A stretch of DNA of 64,000 nucleotides from Nanobdellota archaeon. Lineage in GTDB: Archaea; EX4484-52; LFW-46. The stretch lies in assembly GCA_018897155.1 (NCBI GenBank), contig JAHILE010000040.1, positions 20,157 through 84,156 on the forward strand, read 5' to 3'. This document shows, in pieces, positions 25,321 to 43,593 of the stretch (its first letter is position 1; each line of letters begins with the position of its first letter). The notes under the pieces were generated by a model. It did no database searches. It had not been told where the DNA came from and saw only the letters and a list, made by a program, of their open reading frames with translations. The position numbers and the translations under genes are program-made.

Positions 25321-25986
25321 TTGAAGGGTAAAATAATCTGTGAATTGATGATACCTGAAGAATCCAAAAATCTGGTTCTTGACGAAAGCGCAAAAACAGT
25401 AAAAATCACGCTGAATCCGCGGCTTTATCCGCAGACTGTTGTGATGCGCGCAGCCTACCGTTTCACCGATGATTTCGACGTTATTGTTGACGGAGATCCT
25501 CTGTCAAGCATATTCGTAACGCTAAAGGTCAAGGCAGAAGATGTGGAAAGCACAACGCGTAAAGATTTGGAACAGCTTGAAAATGCTTTTTTCTCCGAGC
25601 TCATCCATGCAAATGTCGAAGAGACTCAGTCGCGCAGGTATGCTGATACAAGAAACGCGCTGATAGGGGCTGCGCTGAGGAACTTAATGGTCCAGGCAAC
25701 ACCGGAAAAGATTGAGAATATCGGAAAAAAACAAAAAACAACTGACGAAGAAAGTGCTTTTGATAAAATTTACAAATACATGCCAAAACAGAATTGTGGA
25801 AAATGCGGCGCAGATTGTGAAAAAACCGCAAAAAAAATACTTACAGGTGCTGCGAATCCAAATACATGTTTTCATCTGAAAAGGGCAGAATTTTCTGTGG
25901 TGCGAGAAGGGCTTGAAAATGCGCTTATTGCGCTAAAAAACAATAATGATTGCTATGAGCTTAATAAGAAAGACGAAAAATGCTGA
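25321..25986 (+). CDS. hypothetical protein with C-terminal CGxCGx3C...C Fe-S-like cysteine cluster; first gene of rSAM cluster
   Basis: The C-terminal 'NCGKCGADCEKT...NTCFH' cysteine cluster. Its 3' end overlaps the first rSAM gene by ~40 nt. Confidence 0.4.
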   Translation: MKGKIICELMIPEESKNLVLDESAKTVKITLNPRLYPQTVVMRAAYRFTDDFDVIVDGDPLSSIFVTLKVKAEDVESTTRKDLEQLENAFFSELIHANVEETQSRRYADTRNALIGAALRNLMVQATPEKIENIGKKQKTTDEESAFDKIYKYMPKQNCGKCGADCEKTAKKILTGAANPNTCFHLKRAEFSVVREGLENALIALKNNNDCYELNKKDEKC

Positions 25987-26911
25987 TTCCATTCTGGCAA
26001 ATGGTGCCTGTCAAACCGCAGAGCATGGCAAAACAGATTATATTCTTATAGGCATCAACAGAATTTGCGATAATGACTGCCTATTCTGCACAGATAACGA
26101 AAGCCATCCGGAATTAAACACAGATGCTAATGGCGTTATCAAAAGAATCGATTCACTAAATATTAAAAAATACCGCACAATAATACTCTCTGGCGGAGAG
26201 CCTGCAGAACAAGAAGGAATATCGGGAATAATATCACACTTAACTAGAGAGGGTCATACGGTTCAGATAATCACAAACGCAAGAAAATTTTCAGATAATA
26301 TATTTTCAAAAAATGTTGCGGATTCTGGCCTGAAAACCGCAATTACTGAAATACATTCTTCGATTCCCGAGGTACATGACTACATCACGCAAAGGCCCGG
26401 AAGCTTCAACGAAACCGTACTCGGAATAAGAAATCTAATTAATCTGAATGTAAACGTGCAAATAAAAATCATACTGAACCGCATAAATTACAAGACTTTG
26501 CCGCAGATTATAAAATATATTTGCAGGACATTCCCGGAATCAAAAATCAATATCACAACAACAAACATTAGTGGAAACGCACTAAAAAATAAGGAATTAC
26601 TCGCGGTCCGATTCTCTGAGGCTGCTGAGTACATAGAAAAAGGAATAAATGTTGCAAACCGATTTAATGCGCGAGTTTCTATCTCATGTTTGCCGCTTTG
26701 CGTGCTTCGTCCGCAGTATCGCACGTACATATTATCGAATGTACAATACCAGTATCTTGATGTTGGAAGCGATAAGATGCACACGCCAAAAAGGCACTTT
26801 GCACCATCATGCGAACGCTGTATTGATTCATGCAGATGCATGGGATTTTGGCGCAGCTACCTGGACTTATTCGGAGAAAGCGAAATACCCCCCATATTTG
26901 CGAAAGATTAG
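25946..26911 (+). CDS. radical SAM enzyme (paired paralog A)
   Basis: 'CDNDCLFC' is a CxxxCxxC motif. It also carries 'LSGGEP' and 'GNALKNKELLAVRFSE', plus a C-terminal 'SCERCIDSCRC' auxiliary Cys cluster. Confidence 0.7.
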   Translation: MIAMSLIRKTKNADSILANGACQTAEHGKTDYILIGINRICDNDCLFCTDNESHPELNTDANGVIKRIDSLNIKKYRTIILSGGEPAEQEGISGIISHLTREGHTVQIITNARKFSDNIFSKNVADSGLKTAITEIHSSIPEVHDYITQRPGSFNETVLGIRNLINLNVNVQIKIILNRINYKTLPQIIKYICRTFPESKINITTTNISGNALKNKELLAVRFSEAAEYIEKGINVANRFNARVSISCLPLCVLRPQYRTYILSNVQYQYLDVGSDKMHTPKRHFAPSCERCIDSCRCMGFWRSYLDLFGESEIPPIFAKD

Positions 26912-26989
26912 CAAACGCGTTTTTATAATTTGGCTGACAATTTAGTATATGCCCAGTAGATGCGTTAGCGTATGTAATAAGGTGCTTCA

Positions 26990-27340
26990 ATGAGTTTAAA
27001 GGAAAAACTGGAAAGAATAAAAAACCAGAACATAAAAAAAGCGTTTGAACTCCCGGAAAATGAAAAAACCGGAGTTGTAAACGGGCTCCTGATTCTTGGC
27101 GCGGCCATCGGAGCGCTAATAAGCCAGCAGCAAACCGCACATAGCACTCCGACGCCGACAAGCTGCGCAGATACATTAAACGACAAAGTAACGGAAACAG
27201 AAATACCTGCAAATAATCTGGATTTGGGTTTTGTTGAAAACTCCTGGCAGGACCACTGTTGGTGGGATCATTGCTGGTGGGATCATTGGGACCATTGGGA
27301 TCATTGGGATTTTACATTGTTTGCAAATGGTGGTAATTAG
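26990..27340 (+). CDS. repeat-containing small protein: hydrophobic N-region plus C-terminal WQ(DHCWW)2(DHW)3DF tract; candidate rSAM substrate peptide
   Basis: The C-terminus reads 'SWQDHCWWDHCWWDHWDHWDHWDFTLFANGGN'. It is encoded by 15-bp and 9-bp DNA tandem repeats and lies between the two paralogous rSAM genes. Confidence 0.5.
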   Translation: MSLKEKLERIKNQNIKKAFELPENEKTGVVNGLLILGAAIGALISQQQTAHSTPTPTSCADTLNDKVTETEIPANNLDLGFVENSWQDHCWWDHCWWDHWDHWDHWDFTLFANGGN

Positions 27341-27351
27341 GTGACGCACGT

Positions 27352-28248
27352 ATGACGAATAGATTATACTGTGCATTTAGCTACGAGTGCAACAACAATT
27401 GCCTGCATTGCGCAGCTGATTCGGAAAAACAAAGAAATCTTTCACTGTCTATTGAAGATATTGAACGGCTGCTTAAAAAAATAGACGAAATGAAAGACGT
27501 TGAAGTGGAACTTTCCGGAGGCGAGCCGACGCTAAAGCCAGAATTATATTATTTCCTTGCGCGCCTGACTGAAAGCCATCCGGAAATAAAGCACGTACTG
27601 CTTACAAACGGGCGCACATTTTCAAATCCCAACAACGCCGCAAAACTGAGTGAATATAATCCATACAGCATTTTTGTGCCGCTTCATGCTGACACGCGAG
27701 AACTTCACGACAAAATTTCCGGCGCAAAAAACAGTTTTGATGAAACAATGCTCGGCTTAAAAAATATGTATGAGTATCGCCTTCCGGTAAATATAAAAAC
27801 AGTTGTCAATAAGCTGAATTATCAGCGCATGCCGAATCTCGTTGAAATGGTTGCGCAGACACTTCCAGAATGCAAATGGATTACGCTGAATGGCCTAGAA
27901 CTTTCCGGAAGGGCGCTAAAAAACAAAGATATGCTTGGAATAAGAATAAGCGACACCAAAACACATATAGAGAAAGCCATAGACATGGCAAATAAATACG
28001 GACTTAGAATCGCCACTTACTCCATCCCGCCTTGCATCTTAAGCAAAGATTATTGGAAATATGTCGGAAGAAAGCGGCGCAACGTCATAATTACAAAAAC
28101 GCCGACAACAGACATGAAACGCGTTGAATTAACGTACGGAACCGTGCCTGAGTGCAAAGAATGCCGCTTTTTTAACGGCTGTACGGGTGCGTGGTATAGT
28201 TACTTTGAGGTTTATGGAAAAGACGAACTGAAACCGGTGATAAAATGA
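27352..28248 (+). CDS. radical SAM enzyme (paired paralog B)
   Basis: 'CNNNCLHC' is a CxxxCxxC motif. 'LSGGEP' and 'GRALKNKDMLGIRISD' match ORF 25946, and there is a C-terminal 'ECKECRFFNGC' cluster. Confidence 0.7.
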   Translation: MTNRLYCAFSYECNNNCLHCAADSEKQRNLSLSIEDIERLLKKIDEMKDVEVELSGGEPTLKPELYYFLARLTESHPEIKHVLLTNGRTFSNPNNAAKLSEYNPYSIFVPLHADTRELHDKISGAKNSFDETMLGLKNMYEYRLPVNIKTVVNKLNYQRMPNLVEMVAQTLPECKWITLNGLELSGRALKNKDMLGIRISDTKTHIEKAIDMANKYGLRIATYSIPPCILSKDYWKYVGRKRRNVIITKTPTTDMKRVELTYGTVPECKECRFFNGCTGAWYSYFEVYGKDELKPVIK

Positions 28249-29645
28249 CTGAAAATAAATCCGATGCTATGTGCAGCACGGTTTGTGCGCCAAACGAATA
28301 TTTTACAAAAAAACTATCAACTGGAAAGTATCTTGTGACTACGCGGCACAGACAGTATGCATTTCTTGACGCCAAGGAATATGACTTGCTTTATAGAGAA
28401 CAATTTCAAGAAAATAAAGAGCTTTTTGAAAAACTGGAAAAAACAGGCATCATATTCACTGAAAAAAACATTAAAAAAATAGTGGGCTCGTTTGAGAAAC
28501 AATACATATTTCTTTTCTTTCCAAAATCGTTCCGAATTAATTTGTCAAATGAGTGCAATCTCATGTGCAGTTACTGCCTGTCAAATGCGACCCCCACCCA
28601 GCACGAAACAATGTCAGACGAATTAGTGGATGCAACAATCAAATTCATGCTTTCTGCGCCCGGAAAAAAGTTTTATATGGAATTTCAGGGAGGCGAACCG
28701 CTTGTAAAATTCAATGAAATAAAAAAATTCGTAGCGAAAATAAAACTTGCTGCTGAGGTGGGAAAAAAAGAAATAGAAAAAATAGTTATTGTAACAAATA
28801 TGACTCTCATGACTGAAGAAATAGCAGAATATCTGCTCGAAAACAACATAGGGTTATGCTCTTCCCTTGATGGGCCTGAAGAGCTTCACGATATCCATCG
28901 CAAGTTTGGCGGCGGCGGCGGAACTTACAAAACAGTTACAAAATGGCTTTCGTACTTTCGGGAGCGAGGTAAGACAATAAATACGCTGCCCACAATAACT
29001 GCACACAGCATAAAATTTGGCGCGCGAAAAATAATTGACGAATATCTCAAACAGGGATGCATTCGAATCCCCATTAGGGCAGTAATTCCGGTTGGGCGGG
29101 CAAAACAAAATGACAACCACACATATTCTGCAGAAGAGTTCATTGCGTTTTGGAAAGATGCTGTCGAATACCTGGTGGAAATAACGCTGAATGGCAACCC
29201 CGTATTTGACCCTAACACGCAAGCAATGCTAAGAAACATAATGGATGGCCCGGTATCCTATATGTGCATGCGAAAACCATGCGGAGGTGCAATATCGCAC
29301 ATGTCGATATCCTGTGACGGAACAATCATGCCTTGCGACCTTTCAAAAACACTGCCTGAAATGGCTATCGGAAACGTGCGCGAAAGCCATATTGATGTTG
29401 CTCTAAGGACAATTAACATGAATGCGCGAACTTCTGATTTCCAACCGCTCTGCAACACCTGCGCGTTCGGGCCGTACTGCGGAAACTGCTACACCAGAAC
29501 GCGTGCCGTTTTTTCCGATGAAACCCCGAGAACTCCGCGCGACTTTGAATGTAAAGTAAACAAGGCAATGTTTACATATCTTTTTGAAAAAATGCAGGAC
29601 GCAAAATACGTAAAAGTTTTCCGCATTTGGATAAATGGCAGGTGA
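28245..29645 (+). CDS. radical SAM enzyme with C-terminal SPASM/twitch-like Cys-rich domain (peptide-modifying type)
   Basis: 'CNLMCSYC' and 'FQGGEP' motifs. The C-terminal tract 'CMRKPCGGAIS...CDGTIMPC...CNTCAFGPYCGNC' is SPASM-like. Confidence 0.75.
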   Translation: MTENKSDAMCSTVCAPNEYFTKKLSTGKYLVTTRHRQYAFLDAKEYDLLYREQFQENKELFEKLEKTGIIFTEKNIKKIVGSFEKQYIFLFFPKSFRINLSNECNLMCSYCLSNATPTQHETMSDELVDATIKFMLSAPGKKFYMEFQGGEPLVKFNEIKKFVAKIKLAAEVGKKEIEKIVIVTNMTLMTEEIAEYLLENNIGLCSSLDGPEELHDIHRKFGGGGGTYKTVTKWLSYFRERGKTINTLPTITAHSIKFGARKIIDEYLKQGCIRIPIRAVIPVGRAKQNDNHTYSAEEFIAFWKDAVEYLVEITLNGNPVFDPNTQAMLRNIMDGPVSYMCMRKPCGGAISHMSISCDGTIMPCDLSKTLPEMAIGNVRESHIDVALRTINMNARTSDFQPLCNTCAFGPYCGNCYTRTRAVFSDETPRTPRDFECKVNKAMFTYLFEKMQDAKYVKVFRIWINGR

Positions 29646-29649
29646 TTAA

Positions 29650-30498
29650 TTGTATTCGCTCATATTAAAGGCAGCAATAGTTGCAGCAATCTTGAAAGCG
29701 ACAAACGCGTTTAAATGGCGCGCAGTTATTGTATATTTCTTGCTGTCAGTTTTTATGATATACTTCTCCGGCGCACAATATGCTCCGGAAAGAATCCTAG
29801 TATACACATTTGAATTTTTTGCAGCATATGTCGCAATCGGCATCATTAAGTACCGCATAAATCGCGCAAAAACAAAAACCCCCGTATACGGAGGAGTTAC
29901 TCTTTCGCTGAATTCGCTTCTGTTAATGTTTTCAATGGGCTACATGTTTGCGCTTAGTGAAATAAATAAATATGCTTCGTTTTTTGTTACAATGCTTCTT
30001 TTTTTTATTCTCAATAAAAACGCTTACCGAAAAAAAATGATTTTGTTTTGGAAGGCCGTATTTATGTTGTCAATAATTCATTCGCTAATAATTTCCGGCG
30101 GCAGAACGCTAATAACCCCGACGTATTTTGTTGCGACATACGCGGTAATAACACATCTTTTTTTCGCTGCAAAAGATGCGTTCAGTTATGCACATTCGCC
30201 TGAAGAATTAACCGAGGGTATGATGCCGGCAGAAAGTATTGTTCAAGACAATAAAAAATATATTTTCGGAAGCACGCTGTTCCCGAGTGCGTTTGGGCTT
30301 ATTAGATATGTCGCAGGCGACATTCTGCTGAAAAGACGTGTTGTGGCTTCATTTTTTGTTCCGCTAACAAAGAAAAACATTCTTGAGATAAGAAAAATCG
30401 CAAAGGAACATAAACGTCCTTTTTTTCTTGTGCAAAAAGAAATAGACTTTTTGCCATTCATTGTTTTGGGCGCAATTGTTGCACTTTTAACAATGTAG
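29650..30498 (+). CDS. polytopic membrane protein (unknown; candidate exporter/processing component of the rSAM cluster)
   Basis: Six to eight hydrophobic segments. It lies immediately downstream of the rSAM/SPASM gene on the same strand. Confidence 0.4.
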   Translation: MYSLILKAAIVAAILKATNAFKWRAVIVYFLLSVFMIYFSGAQYAPERILVYTFEFFAAYVAIGIIKYRINRAKTKTPVYGGVTLSLNSLLLMFSMGYMFALSEINKYASFFVTMLLFFILNKNAYRKKMILFWKAVFMLSIIHSLIISGGRTLITPTYFVATYAVITHLFFAAKDAFSYAHSPEELTEGMMPAESIVQDNKKYIFGSTLFPSAFGLIRYVAGDILLKRRVVASFFVPLTKKNILEIRKIAKEHKRPFFLVQKEIDFLPFIVLGAIVALLTM

Positions 30499-30526: not shown

Positions 30527-32620
30527 CTATGCAGCAATACAACACACCTTACTTAAAAGAGGCATATCAACACAGCCATCACTACATGCCTCCATACCCG
30601 GTGGACAGCCGCCCATAAACTCAAATACAAGGTCACATGTTGGTGGTGGTGGCAATCCTACTTTGCAGCAGATTTTAGTTATTTCCTGGCAATCTGAAAT
30701 AGTTATTTTAGGAACTTCATTTTCTCCTTCCAGACACGCACCCAAAAAATAGCACGTTCCGCCGTTATCGGCGCACGTTAATCCAGCTGGTGCGTCTTTG
30801 CAGCAAAGTTCACCTGCATCACAAGTTCCTGAAGCGACGATCTTGCCAACAGGACATCCCGCTCCTGCTTCACATGTCTGGCCTGCTGTATTTTCACATG
30901 TGTATAATAGCGGCGAGGGCACTTCAATTGGAGGTACTGTTTGAGGCCCAAAAGCACCGCCGCTTTGCGTAGAACAAACATGGCCGAAATCATCGCATGC
31001 ATTGTCATCCACTATATCTATTTCGACAAAAAAGGTAAACTGGTACGGCACCCATTTCTTTTCAACGCTGTCAAAAACATTATATTTTTCATCGATAATC
31101 GTCACATTTATTGGAACGTTTTTTAAAACATATCTACTGTCATAATGCATGTAACAAGTATTTGAAGTATCACAACCGCCAGTACAACCAGATGTTGATG
31201 AGCATTTGCCCGTATTCACAGCCAATCCGCTTTTGTATCTATAATATTCCAAATTTTGGCCGCTGCACCATTCGTTTTCATCGGCGGATGGTTGAGAATT
31301 TATGGGGCATATTTGAAAATCTGGTGCAATGCTAAGTTTCAATTTTATATCCGCCCCCACATTATCAAACTGATTTGATATATCACCGGCGATAATATCC
31401 AAGCCGCTGTTAAGGACAATCCGAAAATCAACTGCAGTATATTGTGGCGTAGGGTCTGAAGGGCATCCGTTCGCATAACTCAATCTTCCAGAATTGCATC
31501 CAAGTGTGTTTGATGGTATTTGATGATCTACCAACGTATTAAGTTGATTATACCATCTCGGCTTCACCCACGCCTCATAATTATCAACAAAAAACTTCGC
31601 GACCCCGTACATTCTCCAGTACCTGATTTGAGCGTCTTCTTCTACAAGGTTCCAGTTTTTCAGATTGGCGTCTGCGCTCAAGGAGCTTATTTTGTCGGGC
31701 CCATAAGCACTTCCTCTCAAAAAGCCTTCGCCGTTATTGAGCGTCTCGTAAACGCCTTTCCCTGCCGGCACAAAAAAAGCATTTAACGGTTCTATCTCAA
31801 AGCGTTGTAATTTGAGTTTTTGTCGGTAGCTTTCTATACTTGCGTTAAGTGCTGCATTAAGATTATTCACAACATCTTTGTCATATATTGAAACCGCCAT
31901 AACACGAATATGCGCAACATCAACGGCAGAGCCAGTAAATATGAGTGTAATATCCTCAACAGAATTTTGCACAATGCTGTTTCCAATTGGAAGGATTGTC
32001 GTGCCTGAGGTTGTGATTGTTGTAACACCATTACAATTTGCATTCTGGCAAATCTGGACATCAACAGATTCTTCTTTCAGCATAATCACATTAAACATTA
32101 TGTTCAGCTGATAGTCTCCTCGCACAACATCCTTCATAGTCTCGACATACTCCGCGGCGGAAACTACTGTGTATGTCTTGGCATCTGTTCCAAGCTTAAA
32201 ATTGGCATCAATATAAGACAAATACGGCATTCGTTTTCGTATTGTGCTCTCGGAAGTTCCAACTGTCTTGCATCGGGAAACCGCAAAATTCAGAACGCCG
32301 TCGGTAATGTCCATTTTCGGCACAGGATCATTTCCAGGATCTCCATCAGTAGCTGCAGTAATTACTGCCGCGCTTACTCCGCCATGCACTCCAAGCTCCT
32401 TTGCAGTATTCATGAGCCCAAAAAAAAGCGCGGTTTTTTCAAACGACTGCTTTATTCCGTGAAGCGCAAGATTAGCATCAGATATTGCGTCAGCACTTCT
32501 TGAAGATGTGCCCTGCGCAGCAGAAAATCTAAAAAGATCATATAATAAGGCACTGCCCAAAGCAATAACTAAAAAGAAGACCCCGAACAAAACAAAATGC
32601 CTTGACAATGCTTTTTTCAT
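30527..32620 (-). CDS. large secreted/anchored protein with Cys-rich C-terminal repeats
   Basis: An N-terminal signal anchor is followed by a C-terminal ~200 aa with more than 30 Cys in repeated '...C....CC...' units. Confidence 0.5.
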   Translation of the reverse strand: MKKALSRHFVLFGVFFLVIALGSALLYDLFRFSAAQGTSSRSADAISDANLALHGIKQSFEKTALFFGLMNTAKELGVHGGVSAAVITAATDGDPGNDPVPKMDITDGVLNFAVSRCKTVGTSESTIRKRMPYLSYIDANFKLGTDAKTYTVVSAAEYVETMKDVVRGDYQLNIMFNVIMLKEESVDVQICQNANCNGVTTITTSGTTILPIGNSIVQNSVEDITLIFTGSAVDVAHIRVMAVSIYDKDVVNNLNAALNASIESYRQKLKLQRFEIEPLNAFFVPAGKGVYETLNNGEGFLRGSAYGPDKISSLSADANLKNWNLVEEDAQIRYWRMYGVAKFFVDNYEAWVKPRWYNQLNTLVDHQIPSNTLGCNSGRLSYANGCPSDPTPQYTAVDFRIVLNSGLDIIAGDISNQFDNVGADIKLKLSIAPDFQICPINSQPSADENEWCSGQNLEYYRYKSGLAVNTGKCSSTSGCTGGCDTSNTCYMHYDSRYVLKNVPINVTIIDEKYNVFDSVEKKWVPYQFTFFVEIDIVDDNACDDFGHVCSTQSGGAFGPQTVPPIEVPSPLLYTCENTAGQTCEAGAGCPVGKIVASGTCDAGELCCKDAPAGLTCADNGGTCYFLGACLEGENEVPKITISDCQEITKICCKVGLPPPPTCDLVFEFMGGCPPGMEACSDGCVDMPLLSKVCCIAA

Positions 32621-32624
32621 AAAA

Positions 32625-33143
32625 TCATCCCCTTGTTTTCAATACCACTTTGGCAACGTCGCCGTTTGGAAGAGCGATGTACTCAAAGGACAAAACATTG
32701 AAACCGGTAGGGCCCATACTGGGCATTCCATAACATCCCGAAACCCCGAGAAGTGGTGGGCAGAGTACGGAATGTTCTACATAAAAATCATATGTTGTAA
32801 TAGATAGTTCCATTAACCACCCAAAACAATCCACAGGTTTCACAGAGTCTGTTTTCCCTCCGTACTCTATTTGAACCACGTCGCCTAAAAAGCTGTTTGT
32901 TTTCCCTTCGCCAATACCTATTGCTAACACATCCCTTAAAGGCAGTTTTGTATTCGGTGCGCAATCCGTGCTTTCAAGTATGCTGTGAAGCGCATATTGT
33001 GTAGTTTTGCTCTTATCATCATATAATAGTGACGTTACTTTCAGATAAGCCACAATTGCTATTATCACTATGAATATCAGCATTATAACCAAAAGCCATG
33101 GCGCAAGAGGCTCAGTCTGTCCGCACCTTTTTTTGTTATTCAT
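32625..33143 (-). CDS. membrane-anchored extracellular protein (class III-like N-terminus)
   Basis: The likely start is 'MNNKKRCGQTEPLAPWLLVIMLIFIVIIAIV'. The ORF-track N-extension overlaps the upstream gene. Confidence 0.35.
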   Translation of the reverse strand: MNNKKRCGQTEPLAPWLLVIMLIFIVIIAIVAYLKVTSLLYDDKSKTTQYALHSILESTDCAPNTKLPLRDVLAIGIGEGKTNSFLGDVVQIEYGGKTDSVKPVDCFGWLMELSITTYDFYVEHSVLCPPLLGVSGCYGMPSMGPTGFNVLSFEYIALPNGDVAKVVLKTRG

Positions 33144-33156
33144 ATAATCATCTAAC

Positions 33157-33864
33157 TTAGCTACAGGCATCATCAAACCCCACTGTTTGAAGCGATTTAT
33201 CACATATTTTTGAACAAAAACATTTTGTATAAGGGCATTGAATGTCGCAAAGGCATAGCGGATATCCATCTGCGTAAAAATCAGTTCCTGAATCCGCGTC
33301 CAATATTACTTTTATTGATGCAAGAGCCATTTTATCATCGCTATTTACGACGCCGGAAAATCTTAAAAAATTTCCATCACTGCCGTAATTATAAGGGGAT
33401 GGCATAAGCGTTTCGAACCCGAGCGGCCCTCCAACAGTCGAATATAAAAAAAAACCGCGATCCGAAATGCAACGTTTAGTTATTCCGCGAGCATGCGTAT
33501 TATATGCATAATCAATATTGTTGTTGTTCTGAAAATACCACGTATCGGTCCCGCTTTTGACTTCAATATAATACAGAGAGCCGGGCAGGTCCAGCGGTTC
33601 CGATGTTCCGGCGCAAACAATGCTATTGTTGTACTTGTCGAGAGCAGTCTTGTTAAATACAAATTTTTCTGTTGATCCTTTTACGTCATTCAAATTTATG
33701 CACGGAGCTGACAAAAGCTTTTCTGAAAGCGCTATTGAAGATCCGCGAGTTTCTATATCTCCTATAACCGTCTTTGCCCATACAAATATTACAATAAGCG
33801 CAACTGCGCAAGCAGTGCCTATGATGACGTAAATTGCAGACATTAAATTATCAACAAATTCCAT
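33157..33864 (-). CDS. membrane-anchored extracellular protein
   Basis: It has an N-terminal TM 'AIYVIIGTACAVALIVIFVWA' and a Cys-containing C-terminus. Confidence 0.4.
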   Translation of the reverse strand: MEFVDNLMSAIYVIIGTACAVALIVIFVWAKTVIGDIETRGSSIALSEKLLSAPCINLNDVKGSTEKFVFNKTALDKYNNSIVCAGTSEPLDLPGSLYYIEVKSGTDTWYFQNNNNIDYAYNTHARGITKRCISDRGFFLYSTVGGPLGFETLMPSPYNYGSDGNFLRFSGVVNSDDKMALASIKVILDADSGTDFYADGYPLCLCDIQCPYTKCFCSKICDKSLQTVGFDDACS

Positions 33865-33873
33865 TATATCCCT

Positions 33874-34341
33874 CTAGCAAAAAGATTCTTGAAATACTGC
33901 ATTGCAGCAGGCAGTACCTTGGACACAAACTTCGACAAACGGCCGGCATGAATCAGCCGGATCTTTTTTCTTAATAACGCAAAATGCACGGGCTTCAATT
34001 GGCGTAATTATCTGCTTTAGCTCCGCTGTGTAGTGGCTCATTTTAAGCTTCGGCGTTAATGCTTCAATAGTGATGGCATCGCCGGAGTACTGAACTTGTA
34101 TTGAATCTTCATCAATTTCCACAGTATAATTTTCATCATTCGGCAGTTTATATATCGCAATGCCGTTTTCAGCCACAGATATTTGGACGATGGTGTTTCT
34201 TAGCCCCATTATGGCAAGCTCTGTTTCGCCCCGCTTGTCTGCAAAAACATTGGCTGTTGTGGAAAGGGCAAATACCAATATGACAACCACTATAAGAAGC
34301 GCTCCGATACCGTTTATAACATTTCCAACAATGCCTTTCAA
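33874..34341 (-). CDS. type IV pilin-like protein (class III signal peptide)
   Basis: N-terminus 'MKG|IVGNVINGIGALLIVVVILVFAL'; C-terminus 'CVQGTACCNAVFQESFC'. Confidence 0.45.
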   Translation of the reverse strand: MKGIVGNVINGIGALLIVVVILVFALSTTANVFADKRGETELAIMGLRNTIVQISVAENGIAIYKLPNDENYTVEIDEDSIQVQYSGDAITIEALTPKLKMSHYTAELKQIITPIEARAFCVIKKKDPADSCRPFVEVCVQGTACCNAVFQESFC

Positions 34342-34345
34342 AAAA

Positions 34346-34555
34346 TCACCAAAAGCTCAAAAGACCGGCGCATGCAGACCAGTCCCATCTCAGGCAATCC
34401 AAAATTTTTGCCGTTCTTTCAGCAACAGGAATTGCCGGACCCATTGCTGCGCTGATAAAGTAAAAAACAATCACTAAAAGTATTATAAATATAAGCAGCT
34501 GCCGGATACCGTCTATAGAAAATACAAACGCGCCCTTCCGCCTTGAAAAAATCAT
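34346..34555 (-). CDS. small pilin-like protein
   Basis: 'RRKG|AFVFSIDGIRQLLIFIILLVIVF', with a Cys/Trp-containing tail. Confidence 0.4.
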   Translation of the reverse strand: MIFSRRKGAFVFSIDGIRQLLIFIILLVIVFYFISAAMGPAIPVAERTAKILDCLRWDWSACAGLLSFW

Positions 34556-34593
34556 ACTATTATATTATATCAAAGGCTATTAATATAAGTTCT

Positions 34594-34815
34594 CTATAGC
34601 AGCCAGCAGAGCGGCAGGCACTTGACAAGGCCATTCTCAGGAATACATTTGCCGCAGTCTGAAAGAGACTTGAACATGCCTGTTGATTTTGTCAAAAAGC
34701 CGGAATTCGTATTTACAAAAAACAAAATTACTAAAACCGCCATAATCAGGCCCAGAATTATGATTATGGTTGTTGAATTCACCTCTACCTGGCCTTTAGG
34801 TGATTTTGAGTTCAT
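34594..34815 (-). CDS. small pilin-like protein
   Basis: 'SPKG|QVEVNSTTIIIILGLIMAVLVILFF'; tail 'CGKCIPENGLVKCLPLC'. Confidence 0.45.
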   Translation of the reverse strand: MNSKSPKGQVEVNSTTIIIILGLIMAVLVILFFVNTNSGFLTKSTGMFKSLSDCGKCIPENGLVKCLPLCWLL

Positions 34816-34833
34816 AGAAGTCCTCGATTGCGT

Positions 34834-36795
34834 TCAGGCTTTTGGCTGACATACCGCTAAGACATTATTCCAGATACATGCAGAACATTTCGGGCAATTT
34901 GTCTTGGTATTGTATGTCGGAGTTCCGCACAGATCGCCGCATTTGCTTACACAGGTTTCTAAAACCCATTTACATAGGCTTGAACAAACATCACAATATG
35001 TCTGGCTAGTGCCCGCATATTCCGCACAATTATATCCGCAGGAAAAGAACGCCACGCTCTTTGACCATGTAACCGGAGTTGCCAAATTATCTGCGCTTGC
35101 AGATGTTGCTAATGTGGCGCTGACCGATGTTTCAAGCAGAGGCACTGTCGGCGAATCCTCTTTAAGGAGAACAAATGAGTAATTCCTTGACGCACTTACC
35201 GGAATATTTATATTATCGCCGCCCAAAAGAGCCAAATCCTTTGCCCCTAACTTTGCGCTAATATGATCGCTAACTTTTATCGCTGCCATGGTACCCGTAT
35301 TTTTTACAGTGACGTTAACAATGCGATCACTGACGAGGTCTTCATAAATTCTTGAAACACCGATTTTTTTGTCTTGAATATATACATTCGTTATCTCAAG
35401 CTTTGGCGCTTTGCAGCTTCCATCTGCGCATCCTGTTAAGCAGGAATCATCTGCCTTAGTAGTATATTTACAGCCCGTCACAGTATCAGAATATCCAGAA
35501 TCGCTCGGGCCTGAAAGGACATAATCACCGTCACATCCACCAGTTTGCGATGAACACGACCAGGTAAAATCTTTTTCAATATAATTTATTATGTATGGCT
35601 TCGTATCAAATGTTTTTATGCAAAGAACGTTTTTGCCATCCCCTTGGCGCTCAACACGCAGCGTATTTTTTCCATCATTAAAGCCGCCAACTCCGACCTT
35701 AGGCAGATCAAACAGAATTTCTTTAGGATTTGCGGGATTAATTTTCTTCCCTGCAATAACTTCCACAGTATTCAGCTTAACCACAACATGCGCGGGATTC
35801 CAAATATCGCTTTCAAATATCGCGCCCATTTGCTTTCCAGGCCCAAACGGCAGATCTGCGTCAAAAGTGACTGCCGGGCAAGTCCATGAAAAACTAACAT
35901 CACGATCTGCTGTTTCAATTCCGCGTTTTACGTGAATTTTCAAAGTATACCCGCCATTATACAAAGCTGCCACAGGCACTCTAAAACTATAAGACGCCAT
36001 ATTTTCGATGCAAGCAACAAGAGGACCTAGATTGCATTTTTGTTCAACCCCTCCTTTCCGTAATATAACTGTTAGACCGTCCACGGGGTTTTCAAGTGGT
36101 CCCATACCCACTTTAATTTTAACATATACTTGTTCTCCTGCTTTTACTGAAGATATTTTAATGTCACAATTCACATCTGAACAAAGAATAACGCGATTTA
36201 CGCCCGTTTCTTCTTCCGCTTCTTCTTCATCTTCCTGAATTGGTTTCGCGCCTTTGTCAACCAACATCGTAATCGGCTTTGACGGGTAATTATCTGCGCT
36301 GACAGTTAGCGTCACATACCCCTGCTGAATGTTTGTGGTGCTTATTGTACCTTGATAAACTCCAGGAGTTGTGGTTTCATCGAACGCGTCCGTTATGTAT
36401 GGCCCTGTTATTGTTCCGCCGGTAATCGGAGCGCCATTATATGTCAGTGCGATGTTTATTATATTCTCCCCCTCGCCTAGTTTCTCCGGATAAGTTGCTT
36501 CAATTGTCTTTGCCAGATGATCTAAAAATTCCCTGCAGGTCTGATCATTCATCTGCGGGTCTTTTACCGTCAAACATGCGGCGCCTGTCGGATTATCATT
36601 GCACACTTTTGTGCAATAATCTATTTTTGAAGAATTGCTTCCAAGTGAGGGATCTGTGCCTTTTATTATTTCTTCCGTTCCTGTTGCTCGCCCGTTTAGG
36701 ATAATATAAATAATTGCAGAAATTGCCAAGAGCACGATTATGTAAATCACCATATTCATTGAAACTTCAAACGTGCCTTTGCGTTTCATAAACAC
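34834..36795 (-). CDS. large pilin-like/adhesin-like protein (class III signal peptide, Cys-rich C-terminus)
   Basis: 'KRKG|TFEVSMNMVIYIIVLLAISAII' followed by a 600-aa extracellular region. The last 70 aa carry ~14 Cys. Confidence 0.5.
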   Translation of the reverse strand: MFMKRKGTFEVSMNMVIYIIVLLAISAIIYIILNGRATGTEEIIKGTDPSLGSNSSKIDYCTKVCNDNPTGAACLTVKDPQMNDQTCREFLDHLAKTIEATYPEKLGEGENIINIALTYNGAPITGGTITGPYITDAFDETTTPGVYQGTISTTNIQQGYVTLTVSADNYPSKPITMLVDKGAKPIQEDEEEAEEETGVNRVILCSDVNCDIKISSVKAGEQVYVKIKVGMGPLENPVDGLTVILRKGGVEQKCNLGPLVACIENMASYSFRVPVAALYNGGYTLKIHVKRGIETADRDVSFSWTCPAVTFDADLPFGPGKQMGAIFESDIWNPAHVVVKLNTVEVIAGKKINPANPKEILFDLPKVGVGGFNDGKNTLRVERQGDGKNVLCIKTFDTKPYIINYIEKDFTWSCSSQTGGCDGDYVLSGPSDSGYSDTVTGCKYTTKADDSCLTGCADGSCKAPKLEITNVYIQDKKIGVSRIYEDLVSDRIVNVTVKNTGTMAAIKVSDHISAKLGAKDLALLGGDNINIPVSASRNYSFVLLKEDSPTVPLLETSVSATLATSASADNLATPVTWSKSVAFFSCGYNCAEYAGTSQTYCDVCSSLCKWVLETCVSKCGDLCGTPTYNTKTNCPKCSACIWNNVLAVCQPKA

Positions 36796-41412: not shown

Positions 41413-43593
41413 TTATAGTTTTAAGAATTTCCAGTCCGATAAGTTATTCTCATCATAATTGTATCTTTCATTATCGTTATATCTACAACTCTCATCTTTA
41501 AAGATAATAATCCCGCCAAATAGCTTTTTATTATGCTTTTGATTTTGTGTTTTAATGTATTTGCTTAGTGCTTCTGCTTTTTCTTTAGCGACTTTTGCGG
41601 TTATTCCACTTTTAGTATCAAAAATACCTATTCTTCCATCATCAAGCATAATTACAAAATCAACATAAAATCCTCTTTCCACACCTGCATCGTCTTTATA
41701 TTTTACTGCAAGGTATTTTTTATCTGATTCTCCGTTTTTGAACCACCATTTAACAGAATTTTTTGGATTTTCAAGTAGTTTTATGAAATCTTTTTCTGGC
41801 ACACTTTCGGCAGAAATAAAATAAGGTTTCATAATTGCTTTTTTATGTGGCAATTCTTTGTATTTGCTGTTATAAGTTATTAGTTTGGGAACATTCCAGA
41901 CAAGATGCTCTGTTTCTCTTTGTTCTGGCAATCCTCCAACAATCTTGAGTTTGTATTCCTCTTTTGCTTCATTAATGCAATCAGTAAATAACTGATTATT
42001 TTCTTCTCCTAAAATTATCTTTTGAGCAAAAGTTTCATCTTCGATTTTTATTACTTTTTCAAAAAACTTATAGAGTGCTGTTCTTATTCTTCCTTGTGAA
42101 TCAGCAGGAGCAAAAGGAGTACAGCTTCCTCTTACAAATAAGTCAAATCTATGTTGTAATTCAACAGCACTTAACTTAAATTGCATTTCTCCTTTATGTT
42201 CTACTGTTTGAACTTTATCTAAAACCAATATTTTTCCATCAACCATTATTTTAGTTACGAGAGATTTTGGCTTTAGATTTATTTTCTTTGCAAGTTCGCT
42301 TTTTTGTGCAATTTCTAAGAATAATTTTGTAAATTCTCCAGAAAGTCTTGTCTTTTCTCTTTGTCTTATGAGATAGATTGAATTAAGATCAATATTGCTA
42401 TATAATTCTTCTCTTCTTTTTGCTTCGTAAATTGTGATATAATCTTTAGCGACTTCTTCAGTTATGTTAATGTCAGCAAGATTTGTGAATACATAACCTT
42501 TATTCAATTCTTCAGTTTCATAATGCTTAAACTCTGGCATTCTCATTATTCTGCCTACTGTCTGAATGGTAAAGTCCATACTTTGCATATCTCTGAACAT
42601 TACCAGAATGTATGCTCTTGGACAATCCCAACCTAATGCTATAGCTTGTTTGAAAATAAGAACTTGAACATCGTTATCAGGCATTTCAATATTCTCAAGG
42701 TTGGTTTTTTCTTCTGATAAATAAATCCCTAATTTTCCGTTTTCTGTTGTTATTTTGAATTTATCTCTTAAAATTCCCGTAATCTGTTCTTGCCTGTCAA
42801 TAACTCCTGTCTTTTTATCAGGAAGCTGAATTAAAATTAATGGATTGATATCGGATTTTTCTTTTTCTAATAGTTTAAGCATTTCCTGTCTTTTCTTTAA
42901 AGCACATTCAATAACTAATTCATCAGGAGATTTGTCAGAAACTTTTCCTTTGTCTAATTCTGGATTTATGGCAATTTCTTTCTTTATCATTCCCTCTTTT
43001 CTTACATCTTCAAATTCTACAAGAACATTATAAAAAGAATGAATGTGCGGAGTAGCTGAAACTTCCAAAATTACATCGGGATCAATATCATTTATTAAAT
43101 TTCTTGAAGTTTCTGTTTTAGCAGTAAAGTGACTTTCGTCTATAATTAAAACTATTTTTGTGCCGTCTTCTTTCGTGTTTTCAATAATTTTAGATAAATT
43201 TCTTTCCTGTTCATTTTCTCTAATATAAACATTATCTGTTTTGTTTATGCTTTCCCAATTCAAGAACAAAATTTCATCTGGCTCAATTTTATTACCTACT
43301 AAATCTTCAAAAAATTTACACTCTATCGCTCTTGTCGTAGAATAATATTTATCTAATTTTTCTTTACTTTGTGTATGTAATTGTCTTGGAGCTGTCCAAA
43401 TAAAAGCGATTTGCTTTCCATCGTCTCTTCTATCAACAAGTCTTTTAATAAATTCGGCCACCATTAAAGTTTTACCAGAGCCTGTCGGAGATTTAAAAAC
43501 TAAAGTTTCTCTTGAATCTCGATTTAGTAATTCGTTAATCTGTTCTTTTAGTTTTAAAATTGCTTTCTCTTGATAATCTTTAATTTCAATCAT
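41413..43593 (-). CDS. Type III restriction enzyme Res subunit (SF2 helicase + PD-(D/E)xK nuclease)
   Basis: Walker A 'SPTGSGKT', DEAH-like 'LIIDESH' and a C-terminal 'VDFVIMLDDGRIGIFDTK' nuclease motif. Confidence 0.75.
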   Translation of the reverse strand: MIEIKDYQEKAILKLKEQINELLNRDSRETLVFKSPTGSGKTLMVAEFIKRLVDRRDDGKQIAFIWTAPRQLHTQSKEKLDKYYSTTRAIECKFFEDLVGNKIEPDEILFLNWESINKTDNVYIRENEQERNLSKIIENTKEDGTKIVLIIDESHFTAKTETSRNLINDIDPDVILEVSATPHIHSFYNVLVEFEDVRKEGMIKKEIAINPELDKGKVSDKSPDELVIECALKKRQEMLKLLEKEKSDINPLILIQLPDKKTGVIDRQEQITGILRDKFKITTENGKLGIYLSEEKTNLENIEMPDNDVQVLIFKQAIALGWDCPRAYILVMFRDMQSMDFTIQTVGRIMRMPEFKHYETEELNKGYVFTNLADINITEEVAKDYITIYEAKRREELYSNIDLNSIYLIRQREKTRLSGEFTKLFLEIAQKSELAKKINLKPKSLVTKIMVDGKILVLDKVQTVEHKGEMQFKLSAVELQHRFDLFVRGSCTPFAPADSQGRIRTALYKFFEKVIKIEDETFAQKIILGEENNQLFTDCINEAKEEYKLKIVGGLPEQRETEHLVWNVPKLITYNSKYKELPHKKAIMKPYFISAESVPEKDFIKLLENPKNSVKWWFKNGESDKKYLAVKYKDDAGVERGFYVDFVIMLDDGRIGIFDTKSGITAKVAKEKAEALSKYIKTQNQKHNKKLFGGIIIFKDESCRYNDNERYNYDENNLSDWKFLKL

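What the first reader, a model, noticed from the sequence alone, without database searches (positions are those of the whole stretch)
27251..27310. DNA-level tandem repeats (15-bp x2, 9-bp x3) encode the (DHCWW)2(DHW)3 tail of the candidate substrate peptide
The coding DNA reads gaccactgttggtgg / gatcattgctggtgg / gatcattgg / gaccattgg / gatcattgg. The peptide tail is therefore generated by slippage-prone tandem repeats, which could make the repeat number variable between strains. The N-terminal half of the same ORF contains a 20-aa hydrophobic stretch, GVVNGLLILGAAIGALI, suggesting a membrane-anchored or secreted leader rather than a soluble leader peptide. Five Trp, five His and two Cys in 20 residues is extreme composition for an archaeal ORF.
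Basis: seen in the sequence. Interest (0 to 1): 0.75.

Follow-up and report, generated by a model that had tools for sequence, protein, structure and literature searches.

The report
Trp-repeat substrate of archaeal Hxs-like cassette
The repeat is real and encodes the tryptophan/histidine-rich tail of a small, probably membrane-anchored protein that tiny DPANN archaea most likely modify with neighbouring radical-SAM enzymes, an undescribed archaeal cousin of the bacterial "His-Xaa-Ser" antiphage system.

Summary
Window 27251-27307 is a coding 15-bp x2 / 9-bp x3 array giving (DHCWW)2(DHW)3 in a 116-aa ORF (26990-27340, +). It has 7 Trp, not 5. The frame is conserved in over 20 relatives (dN/dS 0.1-0.36). 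Copy number changes by whole units between close relatives, and copies within the gene differ only at synonymous sites.

The gene sits in a conserved cassette: HxsD-like, (extra HxsC-like), peptide, HxsC-like, HxsB-like, then a polytopic membrane protein with an Arc_PepC-like domain. The enzymes' best matches are the His-Xaa-Ser (HXS) system models, all below NCBI's curated cut-offs. HXS was shown in 2026 to be a bacterial antiphage system. The peptide matches none of the HxsA/A2/A3/A4 models.

The family is rare, with 14 clusters among 1.84 billion representatives, and all placed members are archaeal. Members share a basic N-terminus, an EKTG motif, one hydrophobic helix, a linker with a Cys, and a variable Trp-periodic tail.

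Best reading: an HxsA analogue modified on its Trp/His tail by the rSAM enzymes and then displayed outside the cell. The chemistry and function remain unknown. I rate it a new variant of a known kind.

The parts
25321..25986 (+). HxsD-like protein with a C-terminal Fe-S domain fused on. The ORF is 221 aa; the gene call on sister contigs is 212 aa.
   Evidence: TIGR03976 HxsD scores 39.4 bits, E 5.8e-10, below the cut-off of 50. PF04060 FeS matches residues 155-183. Orthologues carry precomputed PF27806:HxsD hits. Close relative L002 has a 150-aa HxsD without the Fe-S domain.
25946..26911 (+). Extra HxsC-like radical SAM paralogue (HxsC1, 321 aa; CDNDCLFC motif). It is present in only some cassettes.
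   Evidence: Its best NCBIfam hit is TIGR03977 HxsC at 137 bits, against a cut-off of 267.9. It is 30% identical to HxsC2. It is present in the window, L006-L008 and L011, and absent from L001, L002, L003, L009, L010, L012 and L026.
26912..26989 (+). Intergenic region upstream of the peptide gene. It carries AT-rich TATA-like elements (tttttataa at 26920-26928) and a GGTG Shine-Dalgarno-like element 7 nt before the ATG.
   Evidence: Read directly from the sequence. Promoter function is inferred, not tested.
26990..27340 (+). Gene for the 116-aa peptide, an HxsA analogue. Residues 1-27 form the basic N-terminus ending in the conserved EKTG. Residues 28-45 are the hydrophobic helix. Residues 46-85 are the Thr/Pro/acidic linker with a conserved Cys. 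Residues 86-107 are W-x-(DHCWW)2(DHW)3-D. A short variable C-terminus follows.
27071..27124 (+). Hydrophobic segment GVVNGLLILGAAIGALIS (residues 28-45), predicted to be a signal-anchor or signal-peptide h-region.
   Evidence: Mean Kyte-Doolittle hydropathy is 2.24 over 15 aa and 1.89 over 19 aa. The flank before it is net positive and the flank after it is net -11. G28, L33 and G37 are invariant or nearly invariant in 21 sequences.
27251..27307 (+). The tandem array itself: 15 bp x2 plus 9 bp x3, encoding (DHCWW)2(DHW)3.
27352..28248 (+). Core HxsC-like radical SAM enzyme (HxsC2, 298 aa; CNNNCLHC motif plus a C-terminal Cys cluster).
   Evidence: TIGR03977 scores 174.9 bits, against a cut-off of 267.9. 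PF04055 and PF13353 also match. It lies immediately downstream of the peptide gene in every locus examined.
28245..29645 (+). HxsB-like radical SAM/SPASM enzyme (466 aa; CNLMCSYC motif).
   Evidence: TIGR03978 scores 279.7 bits full length, against a cut-off of 370. The next-best hits are PapB at 145 bits and QhpD at 120 bits. PF13186 SPASM matches. Archaeal homologues are 40-89% identical, and named bacterial HxsB proteins are 28-37% identical.
29650..30498 (+). Conserved polytopic membrane protein (282 aa) with an Arc_PepC-like domain before its last helix. Its role in the cassette is unknown; it may act in export, processing or docking.
   Evidence: PF06819 Arc_PepC matches 6 of 6 orthologues, best E 2.7e-5. 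L027 carries a precomputed hit. The gene is conserved after HxsB in L001, L002, L009, L026 and L027. No A24 catalytic domain was found and no Asp is invariant. The AF2 model was unusable at pLDDT 45.
30527..36795 (-). Convergent neighbouring block of five unannotatable proteins with N-terminal hydrophobic anchors (697, 214, 235, 155 and 653 aa). It may be associated with the cassette; this is not established.
   Evidence: None has a Pfam hit. Homologues of the 697-aa protein sit in the same convergent position in L001, L002, L026 and L027, while the upstream flanks differ.

Best explanation
The repeat encodes the C-terminal target and effector region of a small protein that plays the HxsA role in a divergent archaeal (DPANN) version of the His-Xaa-Ser radical-SAM maturation cassette.

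Proposed mechanism:
1. The 116-aa protein is made in the cytoplasm. (inferred)
2. Its conserved basic N-terminus and EKTG motif, and/or the conserved D-x-G-x-x-x-S-W-x-[ND]-H-C-W-W entry motif, are recognised by an HxsD-HxsC2 complex and by HxsB. (inferred from the E. coli HXS system)
3. The radical SAM enzymes covalently modify the periodic Trp/His(/Cys/Asp) tail, probably by side-chain cross-links. (inferred; the chemistry is unknown)
4. The single hydrophobic helix then inserts N-in/C-out. The modified, acidic, Trp-rich tail is displayed on, or released from, the outer face of the membrane, possibly with help from the cassette's conserved Arc_PepC-domain membrane protein. (inferred from charge distribution and gene linkage)

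The tandem DNA repeat is how the periodic tail gains and loses units. Selection acts on the peptide, not on the DNA repeat.

Shown here: the coding status, conservation, unit-wise copy variation, gene linkage and family relationships of the enzymes.
For: **Coding and conservation.**
- The ORF and array are real and non-random.
- dN/dS is 0.1-0.36 across 8 orthologous genes.
- In 21 aligned peptides, G28 and W86 are invariant. E25, K26, H89, W91, W92, W96 and W100 are 90% or more conserved.

**Gene linkage.**
- The order HxsD-peptide-HxsC-HxsB-membrane protein is conserved in L001, L002, L003/4, L009-L012, L026 and L027.
- It holds down to 42% HxsB identity and 28% peptide identity, with different upstream flanks.
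- Even the WxW-type peptides (P0016, P0019) are followed by an HxsC2-like gene.

**Enzyme family.**
- The best NCBIfam hits are HxsD, HxsC (twice) and HxsB.
- The next homologues after the archaeal clade are named HxsB.
- Distant loci found with HxsC2 carry bona fide HxsA4 His-Gly-Ser peptides with the same N-terminal build.
- Profile-profile alignment of the N-termini gives E 4e-4 at 35% probability.

**Precedent (PMC13128918).** HxsB, HxsC and HxsD are all needed to process and modify HxsA within a repeat. HxsC binds HxsD. Mature HxsA acts outside the cytoplasm.

**Topology.** The charge and hydropathy pattern fits an N-in/C-out orientation.
Against: - All four Hxs model hits fall below NCBI's curated cut-offs.
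- The peptide and 20 relatives match no HxsA/A2/A3/A4 model.
- The repeat has no Ser at the third position, and the gene order differs from the canonical D-B-C-A.
- The tail is strongly acidic. The electrostatic DNA-binding model proposed for basic HxS repeats therefore cannot transfer.
- No modification, expression or localisation data exist for this family.
- No signal-peptide or topology predictor could be run.
- The role of the membrane protein is unsupported beyond linkage.
Confidence: 0.68

Rival explanations
1. It is a classical released RiPP natural product. The first ~85 residues would be a leader that is cleaved off. The ~25-30-residue Trp/His core, cross-linked into cyclophanes or thioethers (triceptide-, darobactin-, dynobactin- or ranthipeptide-like), would be secreted as an antimicrobial or signalling molecule.
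For: - The conserved N-terminal part and hypervariable C-terminal part are the typical leader/core pattern.
- W-D-H and H-x-W are repeated three-residue aromatic motifs of the kind used by rSAM cyclophane synthases. Examples are WprB acting on Trp-Arg and HtkB acting on His-Lys (PMC11851443, PMC11499958).
- C-W-W-D resembles the Cys-X3-Asp motif of ranthipeptides (from my own knowledge of PapB).
- After HxsB itself, the HxsB-like enzyme's best hits are PapB, QhpD, SCIFF maturase and DynA.
Against: - A TM-grade hydrophobic helix inside a leader is unusual.
- No leader protease or ABC exporter was recognised in the cassette.
- Scores to the characterised cyclophane and thioether maturases are far below their cut-offs.
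- The nearest characterised system (HXS) matures a protein effector, not a released small peptide.
- Cys is not universal in the tail: P0014, P0015 and P0019 lack it in the NHCWW position.
Confidence: 0.2
2. It is a pilin-like small protein. EKTG|VVNG... would be a class III (prepilin-type) signal cut before the hydrophobic helix by the cassette's membrane protein, taken as a divergent archaeal A24-type peptidase. The modified Trp tail would then decorate a filament built from the neighbouring N-terminally anchored proteins.
For: - Gly28, directly before the hydrophobic segment, is invariant in 21 sequences, and a polar N/D is conserved at +3.
- The membrane protein matches the Archaeal Peptidase A24 C-terminal domain in 6 of 6 orthologues, best E 2.7e-5.
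- A convergent block of proteins with short basic N-termini followed by hydrophobic helices is conserved next to the cassette in L001, L002, L026 and L027, although the upstream flanks differ.
Against: - No match to the catalytic Peptidase_A24 domain. No Asp is invariant once L026 and L027 are included, so the two catalytic aspartates are missing.
- A profile search of PDB sequences found nothing at E<=10.
- Position -2 is Thr rather than the usual Lys/Arg (from my own knowledge of archaeal class III signals).
- No pilus ATPase or platform gene lies nearby.
- Synteny of the neighbouring block could simply reflect shared ancestry.
Confidence: 0.1
3. It is a non-coding microsatellite, or a chance ORF overlapping a simple repeat.
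For: Short tandem repeats do arise by slippage. ORFs on the other strand and frame also cross the array (27176..27376 on the minus strand, 27231..27344 on the plus strand).
Against: - Only the 26990 frame is conserved across 20+ relatives, with dN/dS well below 1.
- Differences between copies and between orthologues in the array are synonymous.
- Indels are multiples of 3 and of whole units.
- A GGTG ribosome-binding element lies upstream.
Confidence: 0.01

Closest known systems
HXS (His-Xaa-Ser) system HxsABCD, defined in silico by Haft and Basu (TIGR03976-03979) and shown to be an antiphage system in E. coli (Li et al., Nat Commun 2026, PMC13128918)
   Same: - It has an HxsD-like small protein plus HxsC-like and HxsB-like radical SAM enzymes. 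These are the best hits for all three.
- The substrate carries an N-terminal export or anchor signal and a C-terminal array of short His-containing repeats.
- The substrate is predicted to act outside the cytoplasm.
   Different: - All enzyme scores are below the curated cut-offs.
- It is archaeal (DPANN), whereas 99.7% of canonical systems are in Pseudomonadota.
- The gene order is D-(C1)-A-C2-B-membrane protein instead of D-B-C-A.
- Some cassettes have a second HxsC paralogue and an Fe-S domain fused to HxsD.
- There is an extra conserved membrane protein.
- The substrate is about 100 aa and has no peptidoglycan-binding domain.
- The repeats are D-H-x-W-W, D-H-W or W-x-W: acidic and Trp-rich, not basic H-x-S.
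- Antiviral function is untested.
HxsA2/HxsA3/HxsA4 variant peptides and HxsC4 (NCBIfam NF038296, NF038309, NF038313, NF038332)
   Same: - These are small (~85-100 aa) peptides with a basic N-terminus, one hydrophobic helix and a C-terminal repeat tail.
- They lie next to HxsC-like rSAM genes. Examples are L017 (Methanosarcinales MAG) and L019 (Saccharibacteria MAG).
- The N-terminal similarity is weak (hhalign E 4e-4).
   Different: - Those tails are (His-Gly-Ser)n ending in W, and they score above the HxsA4 cut-off.
- None of the 21 Trp-repeat peptides matches any HxsA model.
- Those loci hold multiple or fused HxsC paralogues. No HxsB, HxsD or Arc_PepC protein was detected there by BLAST.
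Triceptides and other rSAM cyclophane RiPPs (XyeB/GrrM/FxsB-type 3-residue cyclophane enzymes; WprB, HtkB/HaaB; darobactin DarE; dynobactin DynA)
   Same: rSAM/SPASM enzymes act on repeated short motifs that contain Trp or His. W-D-H and H-x-W would fit an aromatic-X-X logic.
   Different: - HxsB-like scores to YhhB, GrrM/OscB, DynA and DarW are 63-101 bits, against cut-offs of 310-650.
- No cross-link has been demonstrated.
- The precursor carries a transmembrane-like helix.
Ranthipeptides (PapB) and the QhpD/QhpC thioether system
   Same: PapB and QhpD are the HxsB-like enzyme's next-best hits after HxsB, at 145 and 120 bits. The tail contains Cys followed by Asp (C-W-W-D).
   Different: - Scores are well below the cut-offs of 340 and 453.
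- The spacing is Cys-X2-Asp, not Cys-X3-Asp.
- Several family members lack the Cys in the motif.

Membership tests
HXS (His-Xaa-Ser) system | HxsB radical SAM/SPASM maturase (TIGR03978) | tested here: inconclusive
   It is the best hit and full length (residues 21-463 against model positions 6-466), E 4.2e-83. The score of 279.7 bits is below the curated cut-off of 370. Named HxsB proteins are 28-37% identical.
HXS (His-Xaa-Ser) system | HxsC radical SAM maturase (TIGR03977) | tested here: inconclusive
   It is the best hit for both paralogues, at 174.9 and 137 bits. Both are below the cut-off of 267.9.
HXS (His-Xaa-Ser) system | HxsD small protein (TIGR03976 / PF27806) | tested here: inconclusive
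   TIGR03976 scores 39.4 bits, below the cut-off of 50. Precomputed PF27806:HxsD hits exist on orthologues, including the identical gene on L006/L007. LYP stands in place of the LYW motif (read from the sequence).
HXS (His-Xaa-Ser) system | Substrate HxsA with tandem His-Xaa-Ser repeats (TIGR03979 or the HxsA2-A4 models) | tested here: not met
   No HxsA-type model matched any of the 21 family members at E<=10. The repeats are D-H-C-W-W and D-H-W. His is present in every unit, but the third position is Trp or Asp rather than Ser.
HXS (His-Xaa-Ser) system | Gene order HxsD-HxsB-HxsC-HxsA (99.6% of systems, PMC13128918) | tested here: not met
   The order here is HxsD-(HxsC1)-peptide-HxsC2-HxsB-membrane protein.
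HXS (His-Xaa-Ser) system | HxsA has a signal peptide and a peptidoglycan-binding domain | tested here: not met
   An N-terminal hydrophobic export or anchor segment is present. No peptidoglycan-binding or any other Pfam domain was found. Archaea lack murein.
HXS (His-Xaa-Ser) system | Confers antiviral defence by blocking DNA entry | not testable with these tools
   PADLOC gives only generic rSAM similarity to viperins. No relative was found in viral contigs.
Triceptides (3-residue cyclophane RiPPs) | Maturase belongs to the XyeB/GrrM/FxsB/YhhB-type cyclophane synthase families | tested here: not met
   YhhB scores 66 bits against a cut-off of 445. GrrM/OscB scores 63 bits against 310. Only the rSAM core aligns.
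Triceptides (3-residue cyclophane RiPPs) | Aromatic-X-X motif cross-linked from the ring to C-beta | not testable with these tools
   W-D-H and H-x-W motifs are present. The chemistry needs MS and NMR.
Ranthipeptides | PapB-family maturase and Cys-X3-Asp motifs | tested here: not met
   PapB scores 145 bits against a cut-off of 340. The motif is Cys-X2-Asp, and Cys is absent in some members.
Archaeal type IV pilin-like proteins (class III signal peptide plus A24 peptidase) | A cognate A24 aspartyl peptidase with two catalytic Asp residues | tested here: not met
   Only the Arc_PepC C-terminal domain matches. There is no Peptidase_A24 hit, and no Asp is invariant across 7 orthologues.
Archaeal type IV pilin-like proteins (class III signal peptide plus A24 peptidase) | [K/R]-[G/A] cleavage motif immediately before the hydrophobic helix | tested here: inconclusive
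   Gly28 before the helix is invariant, but position -2 is Thr (K-T-G|V). No predictor was available.

The most novel reading that the evidence does not exclude
DPANN and related archaea carry a previously unrecognised five-to-six-gene Hxs-type cassette. Its two or three radical SAM enzymes install new Trp-centred cross-links (Trp-His, Trp-Trp or Trp-Asp/Cys) on a membrane-anchored, surface-displayed Trp-repeat peptide. This would be a new substrate class ('HxsA5') and possibly the first archaeal counterpart of the HXS cell-envelope antiviral barrier, or a host-contact factor of these episymbionts.
Probability: 0.35. Interest if true: 0.8.

Novelty: new variant of a known kind. Interest (0 to 1): 0.6.

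Why it matters
**Reach of the system.** The HXS system was linked to a function only in 2026. It was described as almost exclusively proteobacterial, and its radical chemistry (+8 Da on one repeat) is still unsolved. This locus shows that the same enzyme trio extends into DPANN archaea.

**What differs here.** The archaeal version has a radically different substrate. The tail is acidic and Trp-periodic rather than basic His-Xaa-Ser. The cassette also carries an extra conserved membrane protein and, in some genomes, a third rSAM enzyme.

**For rSAM/RiPP enzymology.** This is a natural substrate series (DHCWW, DHxWW, DHW, NWS, WxW) for working out what HxsB and HxsC actually do.

**For archaeal biology.** It points to a modified surface peptide kept in very small genomes, which suggests a role in virus or host interaction.

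**For the HXS model.** The acidic tail argues that electrostatic DNA binding cannot be the general mechanism of the superfamily.

Tried and rejected
1. **Structure of the 282-aa membrane protein.** The AF2 run used only 3 admissible sequences and gave pLDDT 45, so it is unusable and no fold search was run.
2. **PDB sequence search** with the membrane-protein profile found nothing at E<=10.
3. **A24 prepilin-peptidase idea.** It is kept only as a low-probability rival. The Arc_PepC domain match is reproducible, but the catalytic domain and the invariant aspartates are missing.
4. **PADLOC** returned only generic rSAM/viperin similarity.
5. **Metagenome DNA scan** with the peptide profile re-found only one already known contig. 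The **viral contig scan** found nothing.
6. **Rfam** found only two tRNAs in the window and nothing near the locus.
7. **Second peptide in L011.** The 400-bp gap after the L011 peptide gene holds no second peptide.
8. **Literature.** Searches for DPANN rSAM RiPPs and for HxsA2-A4/HxsC4 found no description of this family.
9. **Non-coding microsatellite:** rejected on conservation.
10. **Canonical HxsA membership:** rejected.
Full report
**1. The observation**

Window 27251-27310 reads gaccactgttggtgg / gatcattgctggtgg / gatcattgg / gaccattgg / gatcattgg / gat. It is in frame with an ATG at 26990. The ORF 26990..27340 (+) encodes 116 aa:

MSLKEKLERIKNQNIKKAFELPENEKTGVVNGLLILGAAIGALISQQQTAHSTPTPTSCADTLNDKVTETEIPANNLDLGFVENSWQDHCWWDHCWWDHWDHWDHWDFTLFANGGN

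- Tandem Repeats Finder reports a 15-bp unit x1.9 (100% match) and a 9-bp unit x3.7 (91%).
- The repeat finder shows four in-register copies spaced 15, 9, 9.
- (GAYCAYTGG)3 occurs once in the window and never in 100 shuffles.

The 19-residue array contains 7 Trp, not 5. The hydrophobic stretch is 17-19 residues, not 20. All differences between copies are synonymous third-position changes (gac/gat, cac/cat, tgt/tgc).

**2. Is it coding?**

A word-indexed search found five homologues at 41-95% identity. Loci fetched with the neighbouring enzyme gave four more. A profile search of 1.84 billion cluster representatives gave 14 clusters at E<=1e-3.

- All are 92-118 aa, apart from one 162-aa call with an upstream extension, and all keep this frame.
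- Codon-aligned comparison of eight orthologous genes gives dN/dS of 0.1-0.36 wherever dS is not saturated.
- Between the window and its 95%-identical relative L002, every difference across the array is synonymous. The only length change is one 9-bp unit, after which the 3' ends diverge.

The non-coding microsatellite reading is refuted.

**3. Anatomy of the protein family (21 sequences)**

| Region | Features |
|---|---|
| (i) Basic N-terminus | M-[SG]-[LI]-K-[ED]-K-[LI]-x-K-[IL]-[KR] |
| (ii) Motif before the helix | Near-invariant E-K-T-G, with G28 invariant, directly before the hydrophobic segment |
| (iii) Hydrophobic segment | G-V-V-N-G-L-L-I-L-G-A-A-I-G-A-L-I; mean hydropathy 1.9-2.3 over 19 aa |
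| (iv) Linker | Thr/Pro/acidic, with a conserved Cys |
| (v) Entry motif | D-x-G-x-x-x-S-W-x-[ND]-H-C-W-W, with W86 invariant and H89, W91, W92 at 90% or more |
| (vi) Variable Trp-periodic tail | Listed below |
| (vii) C-terminus | Short Gly/Ser/Pro-rich end |

Charges flanking the helix are net positive before it and net -6 to -13 after it.

Tails seen in the family:
- (DHCWW)2(DHW)3 in the window
- (DHCWW)2(DHW)2 in P0001
- DHCWW(DHW)2DFW in P0002
- DHCWH DHCWW DHSWH DHSWS in P0003
- DNHCWW DHTWW DHSWW DHTWW DW in L009
- NHCWW DHSWS DWSNWSNWS in P0011
- NHCWSWGWGWCWSWGWSWG in P0016
- a WxxW type in P0019

The DHCWW/DHW array is therefore one version of a tail whose constant feature is periodic Trp after an N/D-H-C-W-W entry motif.

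The charge and hydropathy pattern predicts an N-in/C-out signal anchor or a long-n-region signal peptide. This is inference, because no predictor was available.

**4. Copy-number variation**

- Inside a single 90%-identity cluster, P0001 has two DHW units and the window and P0023 have three.
- P0004 and P0024 differ by one unit.
- P0002 has one DHCWW.

Against hypervariability, the exact window protein is on 7 contigs from several samples and under four NCBI accessions annotated 'hypothetical protein [Nanoarchaeota archaeon]'. The longest exact DNA repeat is about 14 bp. I read this as selection for a periodic peptide with occasional slippage or unequal exchange, not as a contingency locus.

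**5. Context**

The flanking genes' best NCBIfam hits are as follows (Pfam details).

| Window coordinates | Best hit | Score vs curated cut-off | Notes |
|---|---|---|---|
| 25321-25986 | HxsD (TIGR03976) | 39 vs 50 bits | Plus a fused PF04060 Fe-S domain |
| 25946-26911 | HxsC (TIGR03977) | 137 vs 268 bits | Extra paralogue (HxsC1) |
| 27352-28248 | HxsC (TIGR03977) | 175 vs 268 bits | Core enzyme (HxsC2) |
| 28245-29645 | HxsB (TIGR03978) | 280 vs 370 bits | Full-length match; SPASM domain |

All three rSAM proteins have the CxxxCxxC motif, read from the translations.

A 282-aa polytopic membrane protein follows 4 nt after HxsB (29650-30498).

The order HxsD-peptide-HxsC-HxsB-membrane protein recurs in L001, L002, L003/L004, L009-L012, L026 and L027. 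It holds down to 42% HxsB and 28% peptide identity, with unrelated upstream flanks. These MAGs are labelled Nanoarchaeota, Aenigmatarchaeota, Nanohalarchaeota, Bathyarchaeota or 'archaeon'. Even the short contigs with WxW-type peptides continue into an HxsC2-like gene.

The extra HxsC1 paralogue (30% identical to HxsC2) and the Fe-S extension of HxsD occur together in the window and L011. Both are absent from L002, whose other cassette proteins are 76-96% identical to the window's.

**6. Relation to the known HXS system**

Haft and Basu defined the His-Xaa-Ser system in silico (cited in PMC9062424). Li et al. 2026 (PMC13128918) reported the following:
- E. coli HxsABCD blocks phage DNA entry.
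- HxsC binds HxsD.
- Mature HxsA acts in the periplasm.
- 99.7% of systems are in Pseudomonadota, with gene order D-B-C-A.

The window's HxsB-like protein has about 23 archaeal relatives at 40-89% identity. Identity then drops to 28-37%, where sources name the proteins HxsB.

More distant HxsC2 relatives sit next to true (His-Gly-Ser)n peptides that score above the HxsA4 cut-off (L017, L019). These have the same build: basic N-terminus, one helix, repeat tail. Their N-termini align weakly with the Trp-repeat family (hhalign E 4e-4, probability 35%).

None of the 21 Trp-repeat peptides matches HxsA, A2, A3 or A4. The cassette therefore works like an Hxs system and belongs to its enzyme superfamily. 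It fails the defining substrate, gene-order and cut-off criteria, so it is a new variant rather than a member.

**7. The membrane protein**

- All six close orthologues match PF06819, the C-terminal domain of archaeal A24 (prepilin/preflagellin) peptidases, with best E 2.7e-5.
- The L027 orthologue carries the same precomputed hit.
- No catalytic A24 domain is detected.
- Once the 21-23% identical orthologues are added, no Asp is invariant. Only E195, in a G-M-x-[PS]-A-E motif, is.
- The AF2 model was unusable, and a PDB profile search was empty.

I treat it as a conserved cassette component of unknown activity. The attractive idea that it cuts the peptide at EKTG|V like a prepilin peptidase stays a low-probability rival.

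**8. Mechanism proposed**

*Shown:*
- The ORF is coding and conserved.
- It is linked to the enzyme genes.
- The enzymes belong to the Hxs superfamily.
- The tail is periodic and varies by whole units.

*Inferred from the E. coli precedent and the anatomy:*
- HxsD-HxsC2 and HxsB modify the Trp/His tail in the cytoplasm.
- The helix then places the tail outside the cell.

*Unknown:* the chemistry.
- Trp is the best-conserved tail residue, so it is the likeliest target or functional residue.
- W-D-H and H-x-W fit the aromatic-X-X logic of rSAM cyclophane synthases (PMC11851443, PMC11499958).
- C-W-W-D, together with the PapB and QhpD similarity of HxsB, leaves a Cys-Asp thioether possible. However, Cys is not universal in the tail.

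Because the tail is strongly acidic, the electrostatic DNA-binding model proposed for basic HxS repeats cannot apply here.

**9. Novelty and score**

No paper in the library describes this family. NCBI annotates the peptide as hypothetical. It is rare: 14 clusters at 50% identity. Every family member I could place is archaeal.

I rate it a new variant of a known kind, with interest 0.6. The enzymology and the archaeal surface biology are promising, but function and chemistry are entirely inferred.

Noticed in passing
window 25321-26911 compared with L002 395-847: There is a presence/absence polymorphism between near relatives. The window, L006-L008 and L011 carry an Fe-S domain (PF04060) fused to HxsD plus a whole extra HxsC paralogue. 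L002 has neither, although its other cassette proteins are 76-96% identical to the window's. The two features appear to travel together.
   Followed up: partly
window 30527-36795 (minus strand): Five consecutive proteins (697, 214, 235, 155 and 653 aa) have no Pfam hit and start with short basic N-termini followed by hydrophobic helices, which looks pilin-like. The 697-aa protein is Cys-rich at its C-terminus. Its homologues sit convergently after the cassette in L001, L002, L026 and L027 even though the upstream flanks differ. This could be a functional link or just lineage synteny.
   Followed up: partly
L028 4731-4940 and 6473-6772 (bacterial contig FWWM01005766.1): A bacterial HxsB homologue (34% identity) is flanked by two small proteins. 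One is a 69-aa Cys-rich secreted peptide. The other is a 99-aa protein with the same basic-N-terminus/helix build and a DH-rich tail (YDHCDCHADH...FHDHGHYN). A sigma-70/anti-sigma-like pair lies upstream. This looks like another uncatalogued HxsA-like substrate type.
   Followed up: no
L013 2058-10994; L017 7980-10247; L019 6103-8049: Distant loci hold arrays of up to six HxsC-like rSAM paralogues. They also hold long HxsC-like ORFs of 648-755 aa; the 755-aa L017 protein contains two rSAM domains (two matched stretches, around residues 13-257 and 465-638). In L017 and L019 these lie next to HxsA4-type (His-Gly-Ser)n peptides, in Methanosarcinales and Saccharibacteria MAGs respectively.
   Followed up: partly
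L027 3576-3896: An uncalled peptide gene of this family (tail ...SQWKNHCWNWSWCWCWGWGHMAG) lies between a Peptidase_U32 gene and HxsC. Gene callers miss some members of the family.
   Followed up: yes
window 41413-45337 (minus strand): A type III restriction-modification-like pair lies about 11 kb from the cassette: a ResIII helicase/nuclease (726 aa) and an N6/N4 DNA methylase (583 aa). It is the only recognisable defence-type element found nearby.
   Followed up: no
window 26912-26924 and 27035-27047: A 13-nt inverted repeat (CAAACGCGTTTTT / AAAAAAGCGTTTG, 92% complementary) brackets the putative promoter region and the first 19 codons of the peptide gene. Its significance is unknown.
   Followed up: no
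tails of L011, P0011 and P0019: Several family tails are built from N-W-S or D-W-S triplets. N-W-S is an N-glycosylation sequon (N-x-S/T), so externally displayed tails could be glycosylated in those species.
   Followed up: no
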